Positions 26,016 through 34,411 of a DNA stretch of 46,870 bases are shown here, piece by piece. Under the pieces are notes generated by a model that was given only the letters and a program-made list of their open reading frames with translations, was not told the DNA's origin and ran no database searches. A program made the translations under genes and the position numbers. This DNA is from an uncultured Candidatus Saccharibacteria bacterium (GTDB taxonomy: Bacteria > Patescibacteriota > Minisyncoccia > Phycocordibacterales > UBA2100), in contig CAZPQI010000003.1 in NCBI GenBank assembly GCA_964589005.1, positions 1-46,870 on the forward strand, in the 5' to 3' direction. Positions within the stretch are counted from its first letter, which is position 1. Every line of letters starts with the position of its first letter.

Positions 26016-26045
26016 AGGTGGGGGCTTTTCACCACAAGTTGCTAA
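26016..26045 (-). repeat. Partial direct repeat of the tmRNA-linked element end (att-like)
   Basis: aggtgggggcttttcaccacaagttgctaa matches 27801-27830 at 29/30. Confidence 0.85.
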
Positions 26046-26092
26046 TAGAACCAGTGGTTGAAAGAGTGTATTTATAGGAGTAGAGTAATTAT

Positions 26093-26380
26093 ATGGAAAT
26101 TATAATTGCAATAATTGCCACATGGATATTGCTACATTTTTATGTGTATGACCACAAATCCCAGATTAAACGTTTATGGAAAGAGATTTTCAAATATGCT
26201 CATGAAATTGGCAAATTCAAAAAAATGGAAGAAGAACACGGGAGTATCATGGAGGCTCCAGATTTTCTTATACGAAGGAAGGATAGGACAGGAAAATTAA
26301 TTAATGCTTTATTAGATTATCACTATTCAGACTCGGAAGAGGAGGAAGATTTGGAGTATATAAATGGTAATTCATATTAA
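26093..26380 (+). CDS. Hypothetical protein with N-terminal TM segment
   Basis: 95-aa ORF with AGGAG upstream, AT-rich. Confidence 0.6.
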   Translation: MEIIIAIIATWILLHFYVYDHKSQIKRLWKEIFKYAHEIGKFKKMEEEHGSIMEAPDFLIRRKDRTGKLINALLDYHYSDSEEEEDLEYINGNSY

Positions 26381-26513
26381 ATTAAGTAATGAGCTGGCTT
26401 AAAGAAAACTAGATTCAAACCTAATAAACTTAACTCAACTTTGAAAACTTGAATTAAATCAATTTTTTCAAATAAATGTTGTTAGTAGAGTTATATAGGG
26501 GTATATTCATTAC

Positions 26514-27746
26514 ATGAGAAGTAAACTGTTTACAAAGAAAGGGTTTGTTTCTGTCCTGGTTTTAACGCTGATGATTCCTCAGGCAGTCTTTGCTGCTTGG
26601 TGGAACCCTTTTAGTTGGGAAATGTTTGCTTGGCTGCCGTGGGCCACTGAACAAGTGATTCAAATTGAGAAGAATCCAGGTATGTCGATTCTGATCCCAG
26701 AAGCAGAAGCTGATTTAGATACCATGTCCGAGCTGGCACAAATTCGAGAGGAATTGGCAAAAGAAAGAGCTGCTCGACTTAGTCTTGAGCAAAAGGTGAA
26801 CGCAAGAGGAGCTATTCAGACAGAAGCACCAAGGCAGGTTGCGACTCAAAAGCCCAAAACAAGCTCTAAGAAGGACGATGATAAGTCTAAGGTATTTAGC
26901 ACACCAAGTGGAGCGTTAATTGACGCAGATGGAAATGTTATTTCAGGCTCTGAAAAAGACACTGAAGATATAGTTGTAAAGACAGGAGTGCTTACAGGCG
27001 AAGAAGTATATGCCCGCGTTGCGCCTTCCGTTGTGCTTGTAGAGTCGTCTGCTGGACACGGCTCAGGCTTCTTGGTGGAAGGAGGTAAATACACGATGAC
27101 TAATGCGCATGTAGTGGGTAATGATGAGTTCGTCAGATTGACGCTTCAAGATGGTTCTAGATTTGACGCACCAGTTTTAGGTAAAAATGAATCAGCAGAT
27201 ATTGCTTTAGTTTTTAACCTTTACCAAACCAGTAAATCTGTCTCATATGGAGGCACAGATGTATATAGTTTAGGCACTGGTGCCACGGTTTTTGCGTTAG
27301 GGTATCCTGAAACTTTGACCAAAAACATTACTTTTACTCAGGGAATAGTTTCTGCGAATCGCCAGGAGTGGATGGGGCGTTCTTCCATTCAAACAGACGC
27401 TCTCATTCATAAAGGTAATAGCGGTGGGCCTTTGGTAAATAACAAAGGGGAAGTAGTTGGAATTAATACTTGGGCTTTATTGGGTGGAGGTAGTGGTCTG
27501 GGGTTTGCAATTCCTATAGACTATGCGGTCTCTTGGATACCATCGTTGACGCAATACGGACAAAGTCGATATGAAGTGTATCCAATAGGGAGCACTCTGA
27601 CTATGAAAAAAAGCGTTCGTGACCGCTTCGCACAGAACCCTCAGTTGTCATGTGGGAAGTTATTCCAATTCGCAGAAGAAAATGTAAAGTTATGCGATTT
27701 GTATCGCGACTATGGGAATGACTACGACTGGAATTTTGTTGATTAG
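26514..27746 (+). CDS. Secreted trypsin-like (S1C/HtrA-like, no PDZ) serine protease
   Basis: Signal peptide followed by AWWNPFSW; triad TNAHV, ADIAL, GNSGG. Confidence 0.88.
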   Translation: MRSKLFTKKGFVSVLVLTLMIPQAVFAAWWNPFSWEMFAWLPWATEQVIQIEKNPGMSILIPEAEADLDTMSELAQIREELAKERAARLSLEQKVNARGAIQTEAPRQVATQKPKTSSKKDDDKSKVFSTPSGALIDADGNVISGSEKDTEDIVVKTGVLTGEEVYARVAPSVVLVESSAGHGSGFLVEGGKYTMTNAHVVGNDEFVRLTLQDGSRFDAPVLGKNESADIALVFNLYQTSKSVSYGGTDVYSLGTGATVFALGYPETLTKNITFTQGIVSANRQEWMGRSSIQTDALIHKGNSGGPLVNNKGEVVGINTWALLGGGSGLGFAIPIDYAVSWIPSLTQYGQSRYEVYPIGSTLTMKKSVRDRFAQNPQLSCGKLFQFAEENVKLCDLYRDYGNDYDWNFVD

Positions 27747-27752
27747 TTAATC

Positions 27753-27791
27753 AAATAAAAGACCGCCTTAAAAGCAGGCGGTCTTTTATTT
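27753..27791. terminator. Bidirectional intrinsic terminator
   Basis: aaataaaagaccgcct...aggcggtcttttattt. Confidence 0.85.
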
Positions 27792-27796
27792 ACATT

Positions 27797-27925
27797 GTGG
27801 AGGTGGGGACTTTTCACCACAAGTTGCTAAGTATAATTTTCGTCCTTCGGACTCAATTTTACTAAGCACTCCTGGTCTGGACTCAGCCCTTCATCGTGCT
27901 TAGGCACGCGGGCTTCCGGCTGTTC
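27797..27925 (-). repeat. tmRNA/tRNA-linked structured element ending in a second tmRNA-like 3' end (CCCCACCTCCAC)
   Basis: 27809-27870 is 56/62 identical (reverse complement) to 34199-34260; both copies carry CCAGACCAG upstream. Confidence 0.8.
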
Positions 27926-27947
27926 AATTCCTACATATTCTTTAAAT

Positions 27948-27994
27948 ATGCAAAATGCACCCTCGCCTAAAGCGGCTGGGTGCATTTTGAATAT
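27948..27994 (-). terminator. Hairpin/terminator downstream of tmRNA
   Basis: caaaatgcaccc...gggtgcattttg inverted repeat. Confidence 0.65.
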
Positions 27995-27996
27995 TG

Positions 27997-28510
27997 TGGA
28001 GATGGCGGGAATTGAACCCGCGTCCATGAAAGTCTGCAAGAATGCGTCTACAAAGTGTAGTTTACTCTAAGTTTAAATATAGTGTGTAAAGAGTAAACAA
28101 AACCACACCATTAGGAGTTGCACAGTTGGCACATTTCGTTGTTACTTCACAAAAAATGTCATTACGCCATATTATAATATGACTCAATCCATTTTTTGCT
28201 CGTGCCTAGAACTGCATCCAACTGTGCAACTCCTAAATATATCGATTTCCTTAATTTAAATAACGAAGCGGATCAAGAACGTTATCGATTTCGAAAGTTT
28301 GACACCGCGTTTGCTCTATCGAACGTCAGGCAAGGCGATGGTCGCTTAGGCGGTTACGCGTAAGCGAAGCCGAAATCCTTCATCTGTAAAGGTGAGAGAA
28401 CTCCGCGTGTAAGTTTATTTACACTTATGGTTTGAGTATTTTTTAAGGAAGTATACTCACTTCCACTTTGCACATAAACACAGGGCTTCCTGTCGAATCT
28501 AGTCACCCCC
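27997..28510 (-). ncRNA. ssrA: tmRNA, 514 nt including a 126-nt insertion; tag (A)VNKLTRGVLSPLQMKDFGFAYA*
   Basis: 5' GGGGGTGACTAGATTCGAC; 3' GGACGCGGGTTCAATTCCCGCCATCTCCA with G3.U70; tag ORF 28422-28354 after ATAAGT; adjacent to smpB. Confidence 0.93.
28111..28236. mobile_element. MITE-like foldback insertion inside tmRNA (perfect 19-bp inverted arms)
   Basis: ttaggagttgcacagttgg / ccaactgtgcaactcctaa; core motifs shared with 7190-7337. Confidence 0.75.
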
Positions 28511-28563: not shown

Positions 28564-29007
28564 TTATTTACTTTTCATTTCTCGCTCAATCGAGATTTTC
28601 GTCTGGCGCTCTTTAATTTTTTCGCGTTTATCTTTTTGTTTTTTACCTCGCGCGAGTGCGAACGAAAGCTTCAATACGCTTCCTTTATTATACAACGAAA
28701 TAGGTACTATTGTCAATCCTTTGGCCGAATCCGTTCCTTCGAGCTCCAGTAATTCTTTTTTAGAAAGTAATAAACGGCGTACTCGTTCAGGGTCATACGA
28801 ATTCGGAGTATTTTCGGGTTGATACGGCTCAATGGTAGCGCCTACAAGGTATGCTTCACCGCCACGCACTAAAACGCGCGCGCCAACTAGACTACCGCGT
28901 TTTGCTCGAATCGACTTAACTTCGATGCCCAAAAGTTCAATTCCTGCTTCAAATTCCTTAAGAAACTGAAAGTCGAAACGAGCTCGTTTATTTTGTATAA
29001 GTGCCAT
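28564..29007 (-). CDS. smpB: SsrA-binding protein
   Basis: NKRARFDF, EAGIELLGIEVKSIR, RRLLL.KKE, LARGKK..DKRE.IK. Confidence 0.97.
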   Translation of the reverse strand: MALIQNKRARFDFQFLKEFEAGIELLGIEVKSIRAKRGSLVGARVLVRGGEAYLVGATIEPYQPENTPNSYDPERVRRLLLSKKELLELEGTDSAKGLTIVPISLYNKGSVLKLSFALARGKKQKDKREKIKERQTKISIEREMKSK

Positions 29008-33967: not shown

Positions 33968-34042
33968 CCGCCTATAGCTCAATTGGTCAGAGCATCTAGC
34001 TTATATCTAGAAGGTTTCTTGGTTCGAGTCCAAGTGGGCGGA
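33968..34042 (+). tRNA. tRNA-Ile (anticodon TAT)
   Basis: Acceptor CCGCCTA/TGGGCGG-A, D arm GCTC/GAGC, anticodon arm TCTAG-CTTATAT-CTAGA, T arm CTTGG-TTCGAGT-CCAAG. Confidence 0.9.
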
Positions 34043-34052
34043 CAGCGTTAAG

Positions 34053-34079: not shown

Positions 34080-34089
34080 TAGCTGTCCG

Positions 34090-34260
34090 AGGCGGAGCCA
34101 TGTCTGATTGAATTGAAGACAGGCGAACCCAGACCAGCACCCCGATGAGTACTTCCTATTCTACTAATTTGTTGCCACTCATAAGTAAACAGGGGCGAAG
34201 TGCTTAGTAGAATTGAGTGCGCAGCACTAAAATTATACTTAGCAACTTGTGGTGACAAGT
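34090..34260 (+). repeat. tRNA-linked structured element (second copy)
   Basis: CCAGACCAG (34129-34137), a 61-nt hairpin insert, then a 62-nt block matching 27809-27870. Confidence 0.8.
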
Positions 34261-34411
34261 TAAGGAAACTTGTATGAACCGTATATACGGTGTAGTGTCT
34301 GTGTAGATACAATTGTGTGTTAAGCGAACCTCGCATGATGCGAGCCATTTGCGCTATCAGAAAGAAGGGCTGTCATATAGGCGGTTACGGCTGCCTCGGC
34401 GGTTTAAAGTT

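What the first reader, a model, noticed from the sequence alone, without database searches (positions are those of the whole stretch)
27797..27925. Conserved hairpin element behind both tmRNA and tRNA-Ile, with covarying GNA-triloop hairpin (ssDNA-type site)
Seen: a 62-nt block just downstream of the tmRNA terminator (27870-27809, minus strand) is 56/62 identical to 34199-34260 downstream of tRNA-Ile, in the same orientation relative to the RNA gene. It folds as a bulged stem (AGTGCTTAGT.AAATT / AATT.TACTTAGCAACT) capped by GTCC-GAA-GGAC versus GTGC-GCA-GCAC, which is a compensatory C-G to G-C change with a retained C-GNA-G triloop. Both copies also share CCAGACCAG upstream. Established: C(GNA)G mini-hairpins are exceptionally stable in single-stranded DNA, and bulged ssDNA stems serve as recombination sites (integron attC, HUH substrates). 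Inference: an unannotated tRNA-linked recombination site or ncRNA.
Basis: partly seen in the sequence, partly recalled or inferred. Interest (0 to 1): 0.75.

Follow-up and report, generated by a model that had tools for sequence, protein, structure and literature searches.

The report
Structured insertion elements behind tRNA genes
The shared hairpin is the conserved heart of a small, protein-free, folded DNA element that sits just behind most tRNA genes (and the tmRNA gene) of this tiny-genome bacterium and many of its relatives, each copy framed by a backwards and a forwards copy of that tRNA's own tail, which looks like an undescribed kind of tRNA-targeting insertion.

Summary
In detail: 27809-27870(-) and 34199-34260(+) are 56/62 identical, co-oriented with tmRNA and tRNA-Ile(UAU), and fold as described. 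The block is the most conserved arm of a 115-135-nt core present about 26-28 times in this 821-kb Patescibacteria (CPR) genome, nearly always about 50 nt behind a tRNA/tmRNA gene.

The layout is tRNA, terminator hairpin, inverted copy of the tRNA's T-loop/T-stem (X'), core, direct copy of the tRNA 3' end from the T-loop (X), second terminator.

- **Structure:** in 107 copies, 90.8% of cells pair and 24 of 26 pairs show double changes.
- **Spread:** a covariance model finds it in 31 of 41 genomes of the order and 48 of 151 of the class. Copy number runs from 0 to 28 within one genus.
- **Mobility signs:** cores at different tRNAs of one genome can differ by only 2-6%, while X', X and usually the first hairpin are locus-specific. 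Empty orthologous sites and tandem stacks exist.
- **Known machinery:** no Rfam family, dedicated integrase, TnpB, IS110 enzyme or reverse transcriptase tracks it. RAYT-like Y1 enzymes track it only loosely.

Best reading (about 0.55): an undescribed, non-autonomous insertion element acting in single-stranded form. Main rival: a tRNA-specific structured RNA. No paper was found. Earlier notes of this scan describe the same kind of element in other CPR genomes.

The parts
27994..28510 (-). tmRNA gene (ssrA), downstream of smpB (28564-29007, -)
   Evidence: Rfam RF00023, 100.2 bits; SmpB by Pfam; 5' end read
27952..27988 (.). hp1: first terminator-type hairpin with A-run and T-run arms, directly after the tmRNA 3' end
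   Evidence: Read; terminator-like site found by the scan on the + strand at 27964-27982
27922..27931 (-). X': inverted copy of the tmRNA T-loop/T-stem 3' strand; ends exactly at the complement of T54
   Evidence: 10 of 10 nt complementary, at +66 to +75; in G008 the same segment follows that genome's different T-loop
27816..27921 (-). Core of the element: variable hairpin P2 (about 27885-27915), helix P4 (5' strand 27873-27876, 3' strand 27816-27819) enclosing the long bulged hairpin P3
   Evidence: Covariance-model hit 27787-27942, 123.2 bits; structure counts; single-sequence fold agrees
27809..27870 (-).
27797..27815 (-). X: distal, partly diverged direct copy of the tmRNA 3' end. It resembles the tmRNA 3' end of element-free relatives and pairs better with this tmRNA's 5' end than the working 3' end does
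27757..27786 (.). hp2: second terminator hairpin behind the distal copy
   Evidence: Terminator-like site at 27777-27763 (-); read
33968..34043 (+). tRNA-Ile (anticodon UAU)
   Evidence: ARAGORN; Rfam tRNA, 65 bits
34044..34089 (+). hp1 of the tRNA-Ile copy: a long hairpin whose last bases (34085-34089) are complementary to the last bases of the tRNA, so X' is short in this sub-type
   Evidence: Read; the same hp1 type follows other tRNAs and occurs in G005
34090..34255 (+). Core, sub-type B (different 5' arm). It carries a nested insert of about 60 nt at about 34138-34197 that also occurs in four other cores of the genome
   Evidence: partial covariance-model hit on L002
34199..34260 (+).
34255..34269 (+). 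Distal direct repeat of the tRNA end plus the first bases of its trailer
   Evidence: Read; the orthologous filled versus empty site in G006 and G008 shows the same duplication of the trailer
26016..26045 (-). Solo remnant: the last 16 nt of a core plus a tmRNA-3'-end copy, 29 of 30 identical to 27801-27830. The two repeats bracket a 1.75-kb two-gene block
   Evidence: a variant contig without the block appears in run X3 (table 7)

Best explanation
The block is the recognition hairpin of a small (115-135 nt core), protein-free, non-autonomous insertion element that homes to the 3' part of tRNA and tmRNA genes.

**What an insertion leaves (shown).** The tRNA stays intact with a terminator (hp1). 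Behind it lie an inverted copy of the tRNA from the T-loop onward (X'), the core, a direct copy of the tRNA 3' end starting at the same T-loop position (X, often with trailer and terminator), and the original terminator (hp2). The core therefore sits as the loop of a stem whose two arms are copied from the target.

**What seems to move (shown).** The core travels or is copied between different tRNA loci. The arms are made from, or converted to, the local tRNA. The distal copy can be used again, which gives tandem stacks and, in this window, a bracketed gene block.

**How it works (inferred).** I infer that the element works as single-stranded DNA. Hairpin P3, with its bulged A, TxT mismatch and frequent C(GNA)G cap, and the covarying helix P4 at its foot would be what an enzyme or the replication machinery reads. 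Insertion would run through strand switching at the conserved T-loop letters (TTCGA and its complement), which form both junctions, with fold-back at the terminator hairpin making X'. The enzyme, if there is one, is unidentified.
For: - **Linkage:** 21 of 26 nhmmer hits in G000 lie directly behind a tRNA or tmRNA on the same strand. Of 107 covariance-model hits in 88 loci, 92 have one within 400 nt (median 48 nt), covering 36 anticodons plus tmRNA.
- **Target copies:** 18 of 34 G000 genes with enough flank have a direct copy scoring at least 20. X' follows each tRNA's own T-loop variant.
- **Precise junctions:** the direct repeat starts at one T-loop position in 52 of 57 cases and the inverted repeat in 54 of 63. 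Repeat spans vary from 5 to 109 nt and from 5 to 28 nt. Direct repeats run on into trailer and terminator, so DNA was copied, not mature tRNA.
- **Core moves alone:** the nearest core lies at a different tRNA in 91 of 92 cases, 35 of them in the same genome, with distances down to 0.02. Near-identity starts right after X' and stops right before X.
- **Filled and empty sites:** tRNA-Ile(UAU) in G006 versus G008 shows hp2 is the original terminator and the trailer is duplicated. tmRNA is filled in G000, G008 and G025 and empty in G001, G002 and G004.
- **Patchiness:** 0 to 28 copies within one genus.
- **Stacking:** tandem units occur in G037, G025 and G005.
- **Conserved structure:** 90.8% of cells paired and 24 of 26 pairs with double changes.
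- **DNA-type features:** C(GNA)G cap in 53 of 107 against 8.9 expected; bulged A in 101 of 107.
- **Transcription:** no promoter-like site in the tmRNA copy, which is bracketed by terminator-like hairpins.
Against: - No mobilising enzyme was found. There is one tyrosine recombinase per genome whatever the copy number.
- RAYT-like Y1 genes co-occur only loosely: both 20, element only 11, Y1 only 3, neither 7. They are missing from element-rich G010, G025 and G024, and they are flanked by unrelated palindromes.
- Near-identical cores at different tRNAs could arise by gene conversion among old elements rather than by new insertions.
- Empty sites could be precise deletions between the direct repeats, so the direction of change is not shown.
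- The strand test is ambiguous: GT/TG 66 against AC/CA 101, with 67 of the latter at three pairs. Both strands fold.
- The origin of X' is inferred only.
- In one pair (G025) hp1 and the flank behind X are also homologous while X' and X differ. A core-only unit does not explain this.
Confidence: 0.55

Rival explanations
1. A family of tRNA-specific structured RNAs. Read-through from the tRNA gene, or an unseen promoter, gives an RNA whose 5' end is antisense to the T-loop and T-stem. Its 3' end repeats the tRNA's 3' 20 nt, and a conserved three-way-junction scaffold joins the two. The RNA would act on its cognate tRNA, or mimic its acceptor end, in processing, repair, quality control or decoy roles. 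Core similarity within a genome would come from concerted evolution.
For: There is strong covariation in a 3-way-junction fold. The element is co-oriented with the tRNA in 92 of 107 cases. X' and X are matched to each tRNA. Many distal copies are perfect over 19 nt. The distal copy is followed by its own terminator, as the tRNA is. The core is conserved across a whole class.
Against: A terminator lies between tRNA and element, and no promoter-like site was found. Direct repeats extend into trailer and terminator, which an RNA guide would not need. X and X' decay in about a third of copies. Copy number runs from 0 to 28 within one genus. Copies occur behind a protein gene and in tandem stacks. 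The apical loops are GNA triloops rather than the GNRA or UNCG loops usual in RNAs (what is usual is recalled).
Confidence: 0.27
2. Ordinary scars of integrase-mediated islands or prophages at tRNA genes. On this view the direct repeats are attL/attR, and the core is what is left of elements that decayed or were deleted.
For: Direct repeats of the tRNA 3' end starting in the T-loop are the classic signature of tyrosine integrases that use the T-arm (recalled: Williams 2002, not read here). Tandem accretion occurs. A gene block is bracketed by tmRNA-end repeats in this window.
Against: One conserved structured core of 115-135 nt recurs behind 36 anticodon types plus tmRNA and across a class. 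Random decay would not produce that. There is only one tyrosine recombinase per genome. The inverted copy X' is not part of att architecture. Cores 2-6% apart sit at different tRNAs.
Confidence: 0.08
3. A host-kept DNA or transcript structure with a passive role, such as a reinforced terminator or insulator behind highly transcribed tRNA genes. It would be spread and homogenised by recombination between tRNA loci.
For: The element is always placed between two terminator hairpins in a tightly packed genome. The stem-loop architecture is conserved.
Against: Sequence-specific conserved details (bulged A, TxT mismatch, the ACTTAGT arms) exceed what a terminator needs. Many relatives manage without it. 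A passive role does not explain the target-derived arms.
Confidence: 0.07

Closest known systems
tRNA-targeting integrative elements using the T-loop-to-3'-end att class, and their integrase-less derivatives (CIMEs)
   Same: Sits at the 3' end of tRNA and tmRNA genes. The gene is kept intact. The direct repeat of the 3' end begins in the T-loop. Stacks form in tandem, and the distal repeat is re-used.
   Different: The whole unit is 130-250 nt and gene-less. One conserved folded core serves 36 anticodon types plus tmRNA. There is an additional inverted copy of the target. Repeat length is variable. No integrase was found beyond one Xer-like gene per genome.
REP/REPIN sequences with RAYT (Y1 HUH) enzymes, and IS200/IS605-type ends
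   Same: A multi-copy, intergenic, terminator-adjacent, imperfect hairpin with conserved bulge and mismatch. A short covarying helix at the hairpin foot recalls guide/cleavage-site pairing (recalled from IS608 work). RAYT-like genes are present in 23 of 41 genomes.
   Different: Insertion is specific to tRNA genes. The direct and inverted repeats are long and target-derived, in place of a constant 4-5-nt target without duplication. The RAYT-like genes are flanked by other palindromes and are missing from several element-rich genomes.
Integron attC sites and the folded attP of CTX-type ssDNA phages
   Same: A conserved structure with a variable sequence, extrahelical bases and a variable apical part. 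A hairpin whose stem imitates the double-stranded target would explain X:X'.
   Different: No integron integrase, attI or R-box-like arms. The target is a tRNA gene, not attI or dif. Most units carry no cassette gene.
MITEs (Correia, ERIC, RPE and similar)
   Same: Small, non-coding, repeated, structured and patchy between relatives.
   Different: No constant terminal inverted repeats and no fixed short target duplication. Here the 'inverted repeat' is copied from each target.

Membership tests
Any Rfam 15 RNA family (including ribozymes, group I/II introns, 6S, tRNA-like) | Match to a curated covariance model | tested here: not met
   Only tmRNA and tRNA reach the gathering score in the window. 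No family hits the element at E<=1 in 10 element loci or at E<=0.1 in 4 further loci.
Integrase att sites at tRNA genes / CIME | Direct repeat of the tRNA 3' end flanking the insert | tested here: met
Integrase att sites at tRNA genes / CIME | A cognate tyrosine (or serine) integrase in the element or genome | tested here: not met
   PF00589 gives one hit per genome in most of 39 of 41 genomes, independent of copy number. Serine recombinases were not searched.
REP/REPIN-RAYT | RAYT gene present and flanked by the same repeat | tested here: not met
   Four RAYT-like paralogues are below the NCBIfam cut-off. Their flanks carry other palindromes and no element copy. Co-occurrence is 20/11/3/7.
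IS200/IS605-type ends (PATE) | Constant short target at the left flank, no target duplication | tested here: not met
   Left flanks differ between loci. Direct repeats span 5-109 nt.
IS200/IS605-type ends (PATE) | Sub-terminal imperfect hairpin with a guide/cleavage-site helix at its foot | tested here: inconclusive
   P3 plus the covarying P4 have this shape. No cleavage data exist.
TnpB/IscB omega-RNA | TnpB-type nuclease in the genome | tested here: not met
   PF07282 is over the cut-off in 1 of 41 genomes, and not in G000.
IS110 bridge RNA | DEDD IS110 recombinase | tested here: not met
   PF01548 is over the cut-off in 0 of 41 genomes.
Retroelement (retron, group II, DGR, SINE-like) | Reverse transcriptase co-occurring; target copy from mature tRNA (CCA) | tested here: not met
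   PF00078 hits 11 of 41 genomes and none of the element-rich G005, G006, G008, G009 and G010. Distal copies continue into the gene's trailer rather than CCA.
Integron attC | Extrahelical bases and a variable apical structure | tested here: met
   Bulged A in 101 of 107, TxT mismatch, apical part 5-53 nt long.
Integron attC | Integron integrase plus attI, with cassette arrays | tested here: not met
   One Xer-like recombinase per genome. Most units are gene-less.
MITE of a DDE transposon | Constant terminal inverted repeats and a fixed short target duplication | tested here: not met
   The arms are tRNA-specific and repeat length is variable. DDE transposases were not searched.

The most novel reading that the evidence does not exclude
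The elements may be a genome-wide set of programmable, tRNA-specific nucleic-acid guides. Each core would carry one arm complementary to and one arm identical with the T-loop-to-3'-end of its tRNA, so it could address both strands of the tRNA gene or the tRNA itself.

Two versions fit. In one, the core directs its own enzyme-poor, template-copying insertion, which would be a new transposition principle in which the target writes the element's ends. In the other, it serves the cell as a per-tRNA guide RNA system for 3'-end repair or surveillance.
Probability: 0.15. Interest if true: 0.95.

Novelty: categorically new. Interest (0 to 1): 0.85.

Why it matters
tRNA genes are the classic landing sites of mobile DNA, but the known users are kilobase-sized elements with their own integrases. 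Here a folded unit of about 120 nt without any gene occupies most tRNA genes and the tmRNA gene of many ultra-small bacteria. It keeps every gene intact and carries ends written from the target itself.

If it is mobile, it points to an unknown insertion mechanism, possibly based on single strands or replication. That mechanism would be aimed at one of the most conserved sequences in biology, the T-loop. If it is an RNA, it would be the first per-tRNA set of guide-like RNAs in bacteria.

Either way it explains much of the 'orphan' intergenic DNA and many assembly breaks at tRNA genes in Patescibacteria genomes. The distal copies also seem to act as places where accessory genes are gained and lost.

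Tried and rejected
- **Rfam:** gathering search on the window and E-value searches on 14 loci gave nothing for the element.
- **Expression:** no RNA holder was listed for the window, so expression could not be examined.
- **Read laying:** only contigs of three DNA runs from one study were available. Joints 27820>28013 (one contig, side 21), 34103>34199 (two runs, side 22) and 27866>27882 are too short-sided to tell variants from paralogues or other strains, so they were not used. Only the loose end at 27801 in X3 was used, and only for a passing note.
- **Enzyme candidates by co-occurrence:** tyrosine recombinase, TnpB, reverse transcriptase and IS110 do not track the element. The Y1/RAYT-like family tracks it weakly, and its flanks hold other palindromes.
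- **Strand from wobble pairs:** ambiguous.
- **Empty versus filled sites with conserved flanks inside the genus:** flanking genes are too diverged for DNA matching. Only the tRNA-Ile pair G006/G008 and the tmRNA sites were usable.
- **Ideas considered and dropped:**
  - Group-I-like trans-splicing: the core is too small and a terminator lies in the way.
  - Primer-binding-site or retro-copying of mature tRNA: no CCA and no reverse transcriptase.
  - Fold-back from the original terminator: hp2, not hp1, is orthologous to the empty-site terminator.
  - Hairpin-capped break giving a true palindrome: the hp1 and hp2 loops are direct, not inverted, in G005.
- **Repeat near tRNA-Ser genes:** about 400 nt between two tRNA-Ser genes and their elements had no Rfam match and was not pursued.
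- **Literature:** searches found no description (listings and abstract starts only).

Full report
**Observation.** The two stretches are as described. 27809-27870 on the minus strand and 34199-34260 on the plus strand are 56/62 identical. The first lies behind the tmRNA gene (27994-28510, minus; Rfam). The second lies behind tRNA-Ile(UAU) (33968-34043, plus). Each is on the strand of its RNA gene. The bulged stem and the two caps (GAA closed by C-G on a GTCC/GGAC stem, GCA on a GTGC/GCAC stem) can be read and come out of single-sequence folding. Z-scores are -3.5 and -5.7 as DNA, but the complementary strands fold nearly as well. The shared CCAGACCAG upstream is real.

**What the block belongs to.** A search of the window's own genome (821 kb, 46 contigs, about 94% complete) gave ten matches to the block. 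All that could be placed lay behind tRNA genes found by ARAGORN (37 tRNAs). I printed 400 nt behind every tRNA and the tmRNA, which showed a common layout:
- the tRNA;
- a terminator-type hairpin with A-rich and T-rich arms (hp1);
- a segment complementary to the tRNA's T-loop and T-stem 3' strand (X');
- a conserved core;
- a direct copy of the tRNA from the T-loop to the discriminator (X);
- a second terminator hairpin (hp2).

Of the 34 genes with enough flank, 18 have a direct copy scoring at least 20, six of them perfect over 19 nt. The inverted copies end in the complement of that tRNA's own T-loop. A profile of 17 copies finds 26 in the genome. Of these, 21 lie directly behind a tRNA or the tmRNA. 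One lies at a contig start that continues the contig end carrying tRNA-Trp. Two lie behind tRNA-Ser-type 3'-end copies with about 400 nt of another repeat in between. One lies at a contig start, and one behind a protein gene. The tRNA-Ile copy belongs to a sub-type (B) with a different 5' arm and a conserved hp1 that starts right at the tRNA end. It also carries a nested insert of about 60 nt seen in four other cores.

**Structure.** On 16 paralogues I set out five helices:
- H1, formed by X' with X;
- a 3-bp helix closing the variable hairpin P2;
- the P2 base;
- P4, a 4-bp helix that encloses P3;

In this set 88% of cells pair and 17 of 26 pairs show changes on both sides. None of 500 shuffles reaches these values, and slid controls give 23-39% pairing. 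On 107 hits from 88 loci of 31 genomes the figures are 90.8% paired and 24 of 26 pairs with double changes, again 0 of 500. That alignment was fitted to the model, which favours the structure. H1 covaries trivially, because both arms derive from the tRNA.

Three details are conserved in P3. The TxT mismatch is T in 99 and 96 of 107 copies on its two sides. The bulged A is present in 101 of 107. A C(GNA)G cap occurs in 53 of 107 against 8.9 in shuffles. Wobble counts do not decide the strand. GT/TG total 66 and AC/CA total 101, but 67 of the AC/CA cells sit at three pairs.

**Distribution.** The covariance model R1 finds the element in 31 of 41 genomes of the same order. Within the window's genus the counts are 28, 1, 0, 3, 0, 12, 21, 15, 22, 16 and 15. 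In a sample of the class it appears in 48 of 151 genomes, under stricter filters and with only 19 candidates scored per genome. Of the 107 hits, 92 have a same-strand tRNA or tmRNA within 400 nt upstream (median 48 nt). These cover 36 anticodons plus tmRNA. About half of the 15 others lie at contig or locus ends.

**Signs of insertion.**
1. *Precise junctions.* Among 86 copies with a tRNA at most 120 nt upstream, the direct repeat starts at the same T-loop position in 52 of the 57 with at least 10 matches. The inverted repeat does so in 54 of 63. Their far ends vary, with spans of 5-109 nt and 5-28 nt.
2. *DNA was copied.* The direct repeat often runs on into the trailer and even the whole hp1, for example in G005 Tyr and Trp and in G010 Thr. 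So DNA, not mature tRNA, was the source.
3. *Core similarity crosses tRNAs.* With X' and X excluded, the nearest relative of a core sits at a different tRNA in 91 of 92 cases. In 35 cases it is in the same genome, at distances down to 0.02-0.06. Alignment of such pairs shows near-identity beginning right after X' and ending right before X. X', X and mostly hp1 are locus-specific. In the G025 pair, hp1 and the flank behind X are also alike while X' and X differ.
4. *Filled and empty sites.* For tRNA-Ile(UAU), G008 has tRNA, trailer and terminator. G006 has the same terminator behind an inserted hp1, X' and core, with the 13-nt trailer duplicated. For tmRNA, G001, G002 and G004 have no element, while G000, G008 and G025 do. 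In G000 the distal copy resembles the 3' end of the element-free relatives. It also pairs with the tmRNA 5' end with one wobble fewer than the working 3' end.
5. *Stacks.* Two units in a row follow tRNA-Asp in G037, tRNA-Tyr and tmRNA in G025, and Asp and Trp in G005. This means the distal copy can serve as a target again.

**Who moves it?**
- Tyrosine recombinases occur once per genome in most of 39 of 41 genomes, regardless of copy number.
- TnpB is over the cut-off in 1 of 41 genomes.
- The IS110 enzyme is over the cut-off in 0 of 41.
- Reverse transcriptase occurs in 11 of 41 and is missing from five element-rich genomes.
- Y1 HUH proteins of the RAYT type are best matched by NF047646, below its cut-off. 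They occur in 23 of 41 genomes. The cross-table is both 20, element only 11, Y1 only 3, neither 7 (my count; the genomes are related, so no test is given). Element-rich G010, G025 and G024 lack them. In G000, two of the four Y1 genes are flanked on both sides by their own perfect palindrome, and none has a copy of the element beside it.

So no enzyme is identified. Serine recombinases and DDE transposases were not searched.

**Transcription.** No promoter-like site was found in the tmRNA copy. Terminator-like hairpins lie on both sides of it. No RNA run holds the window, so expression is open.

**Reading.** The element is most likely an insertion element whose conserved, single-strand-folded core is what is recognised or copied, and whose arms are written from the target. 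The mechanism I commit to is strand switching at the conserved T-loop letters, which form both junctions, with fold-back at a terminator hairpin creating the inverted copy. That is inference. It fits the precise inner junctions, the variable outer ends, the lack of a dedicated enzyme, and the DNA-type triloops.

Several points remain unexplained:
- why the inverted copy stops at T54;
- the mosaic G025 pair;
- whether similarity of cores reflects jumps or gene conversion;
- whether empty sites are ancestral or deletions.

The main rival is a per-tRNA structured RNA with an antisense 5' arm and a tRNA-like 3' end. The structural conservation and the many perfect distal copies keep it alive. The terminators, the decay of arms in about a third of copies, the patchiness and the stacks speak against it.

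**Comparison with known systems.** The element shares the T-loop-anchored direct repeat and the stacking with integrase-driven islands at tRNA genes. It shares the imperfect, protein-site-like hairpin with REP/RAYT and IS200/IS605 ends and with attC sites. It fails defining features of each (see the membership table).

Rfam 15 has no model for it. Four full-text searches (listings and abstract starts only) found no description. Statements about integrase sublocation classes, IS608 guide pairing, CTX-type folded attP and the stability of GNA DNA triloops are recalled, not read here.

Earlier notes of this scan on other Patescibacteria genomes describe the same kind of element. They are unchecked AI notes and not independent evidence.

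**Verdict.** The finding is real and is the tip of a class-wide, apparently undescribed family. How it spreads and whether it is expressed remain open.

Noticed in passing
window 26016-26045 and 27801-27830, bracketing 26046-27800: A 30-nt direct repeat (29 of 30 identical; the last 16 nt of a core plus a tmRNA-3'-end copy) brackets a 1.75-kb block holding a 95-aa ORF without Pfam match and a trypsin-like peptidase gene. One contig of run X3 joins the flank left of 26016 directly to 27801, which is a variant without the block. Gene gain and loss seems to happen at the element's distal repeat.
   Followed up: partly
window about 34138-34197; also G000 C2:15364-15454, C10:21302-21447 (two copies), C14:17414-17522: A second, nested hairpin module of about 60 nt is inserted at one fixed place (between P4 and P3) in five cores of the genome. 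It looks like an insertion within the insertion element.
   Followed up: partly
G000 C11:16155-16520 and C28:3482-3850 (loci L012, L013); C19:17619-17879; C4:1-51: Two tRNA-Ser genes are followed by a shared repeat of about 400 nt or more, starting right at the tRNA end, before the usual hp1-X'-core-X unit. It has no Rfam match. Contigs break inside it.
   Followed up: partly
G000 C18:16777-17439, C9:9950-10627, C1:18717-19379, C5:1837-2547: Four diverged RAYT-like Y1 HUH genes of about 220 aa. The C18 and C9 genes are flanked on both sides by their own perfect palindrome of 27-29 bp, like miniature REP-RAYT or IS200-type units.
   Followed up: partly
G005 locus L112 (tRNA-Val GAC) and G006 locus L123 (tRNA-Ile UAU): Besides the T-loop-anchored repeats, these tRNAs carry a longer duplication of their 3' half, starting in the anticodon stem or loop, around short inserts. 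This is a second class of insertion scar at the same genes.
   Followed up: no
G000 C17:12362-12560 (tRNA-Pro UGG): A gene-less insert of about 55 nt with a different small hairpin is followed by a copy of the tRNA 3' end. That copy carries the sequence variant seen in the tRNA-Pro of G009 and G025, while the working 3' end differs by two bases. The distal copy looks ancestral and the working end imported.
   Followed up: no
window 33968-34043: This is a tRNA-Ile with a genomically encoded UAU anticodon, which is unusual in bacteria. It is also present in G005, G006, G008 and G009.
   Followed up: no
window 27994-28510: ARAGORN does not call this tmRNA, but Rfam does (100.2 bits over 517 nt, longer than the 374-position model), so it carries extra inserts.
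   Followed up: no
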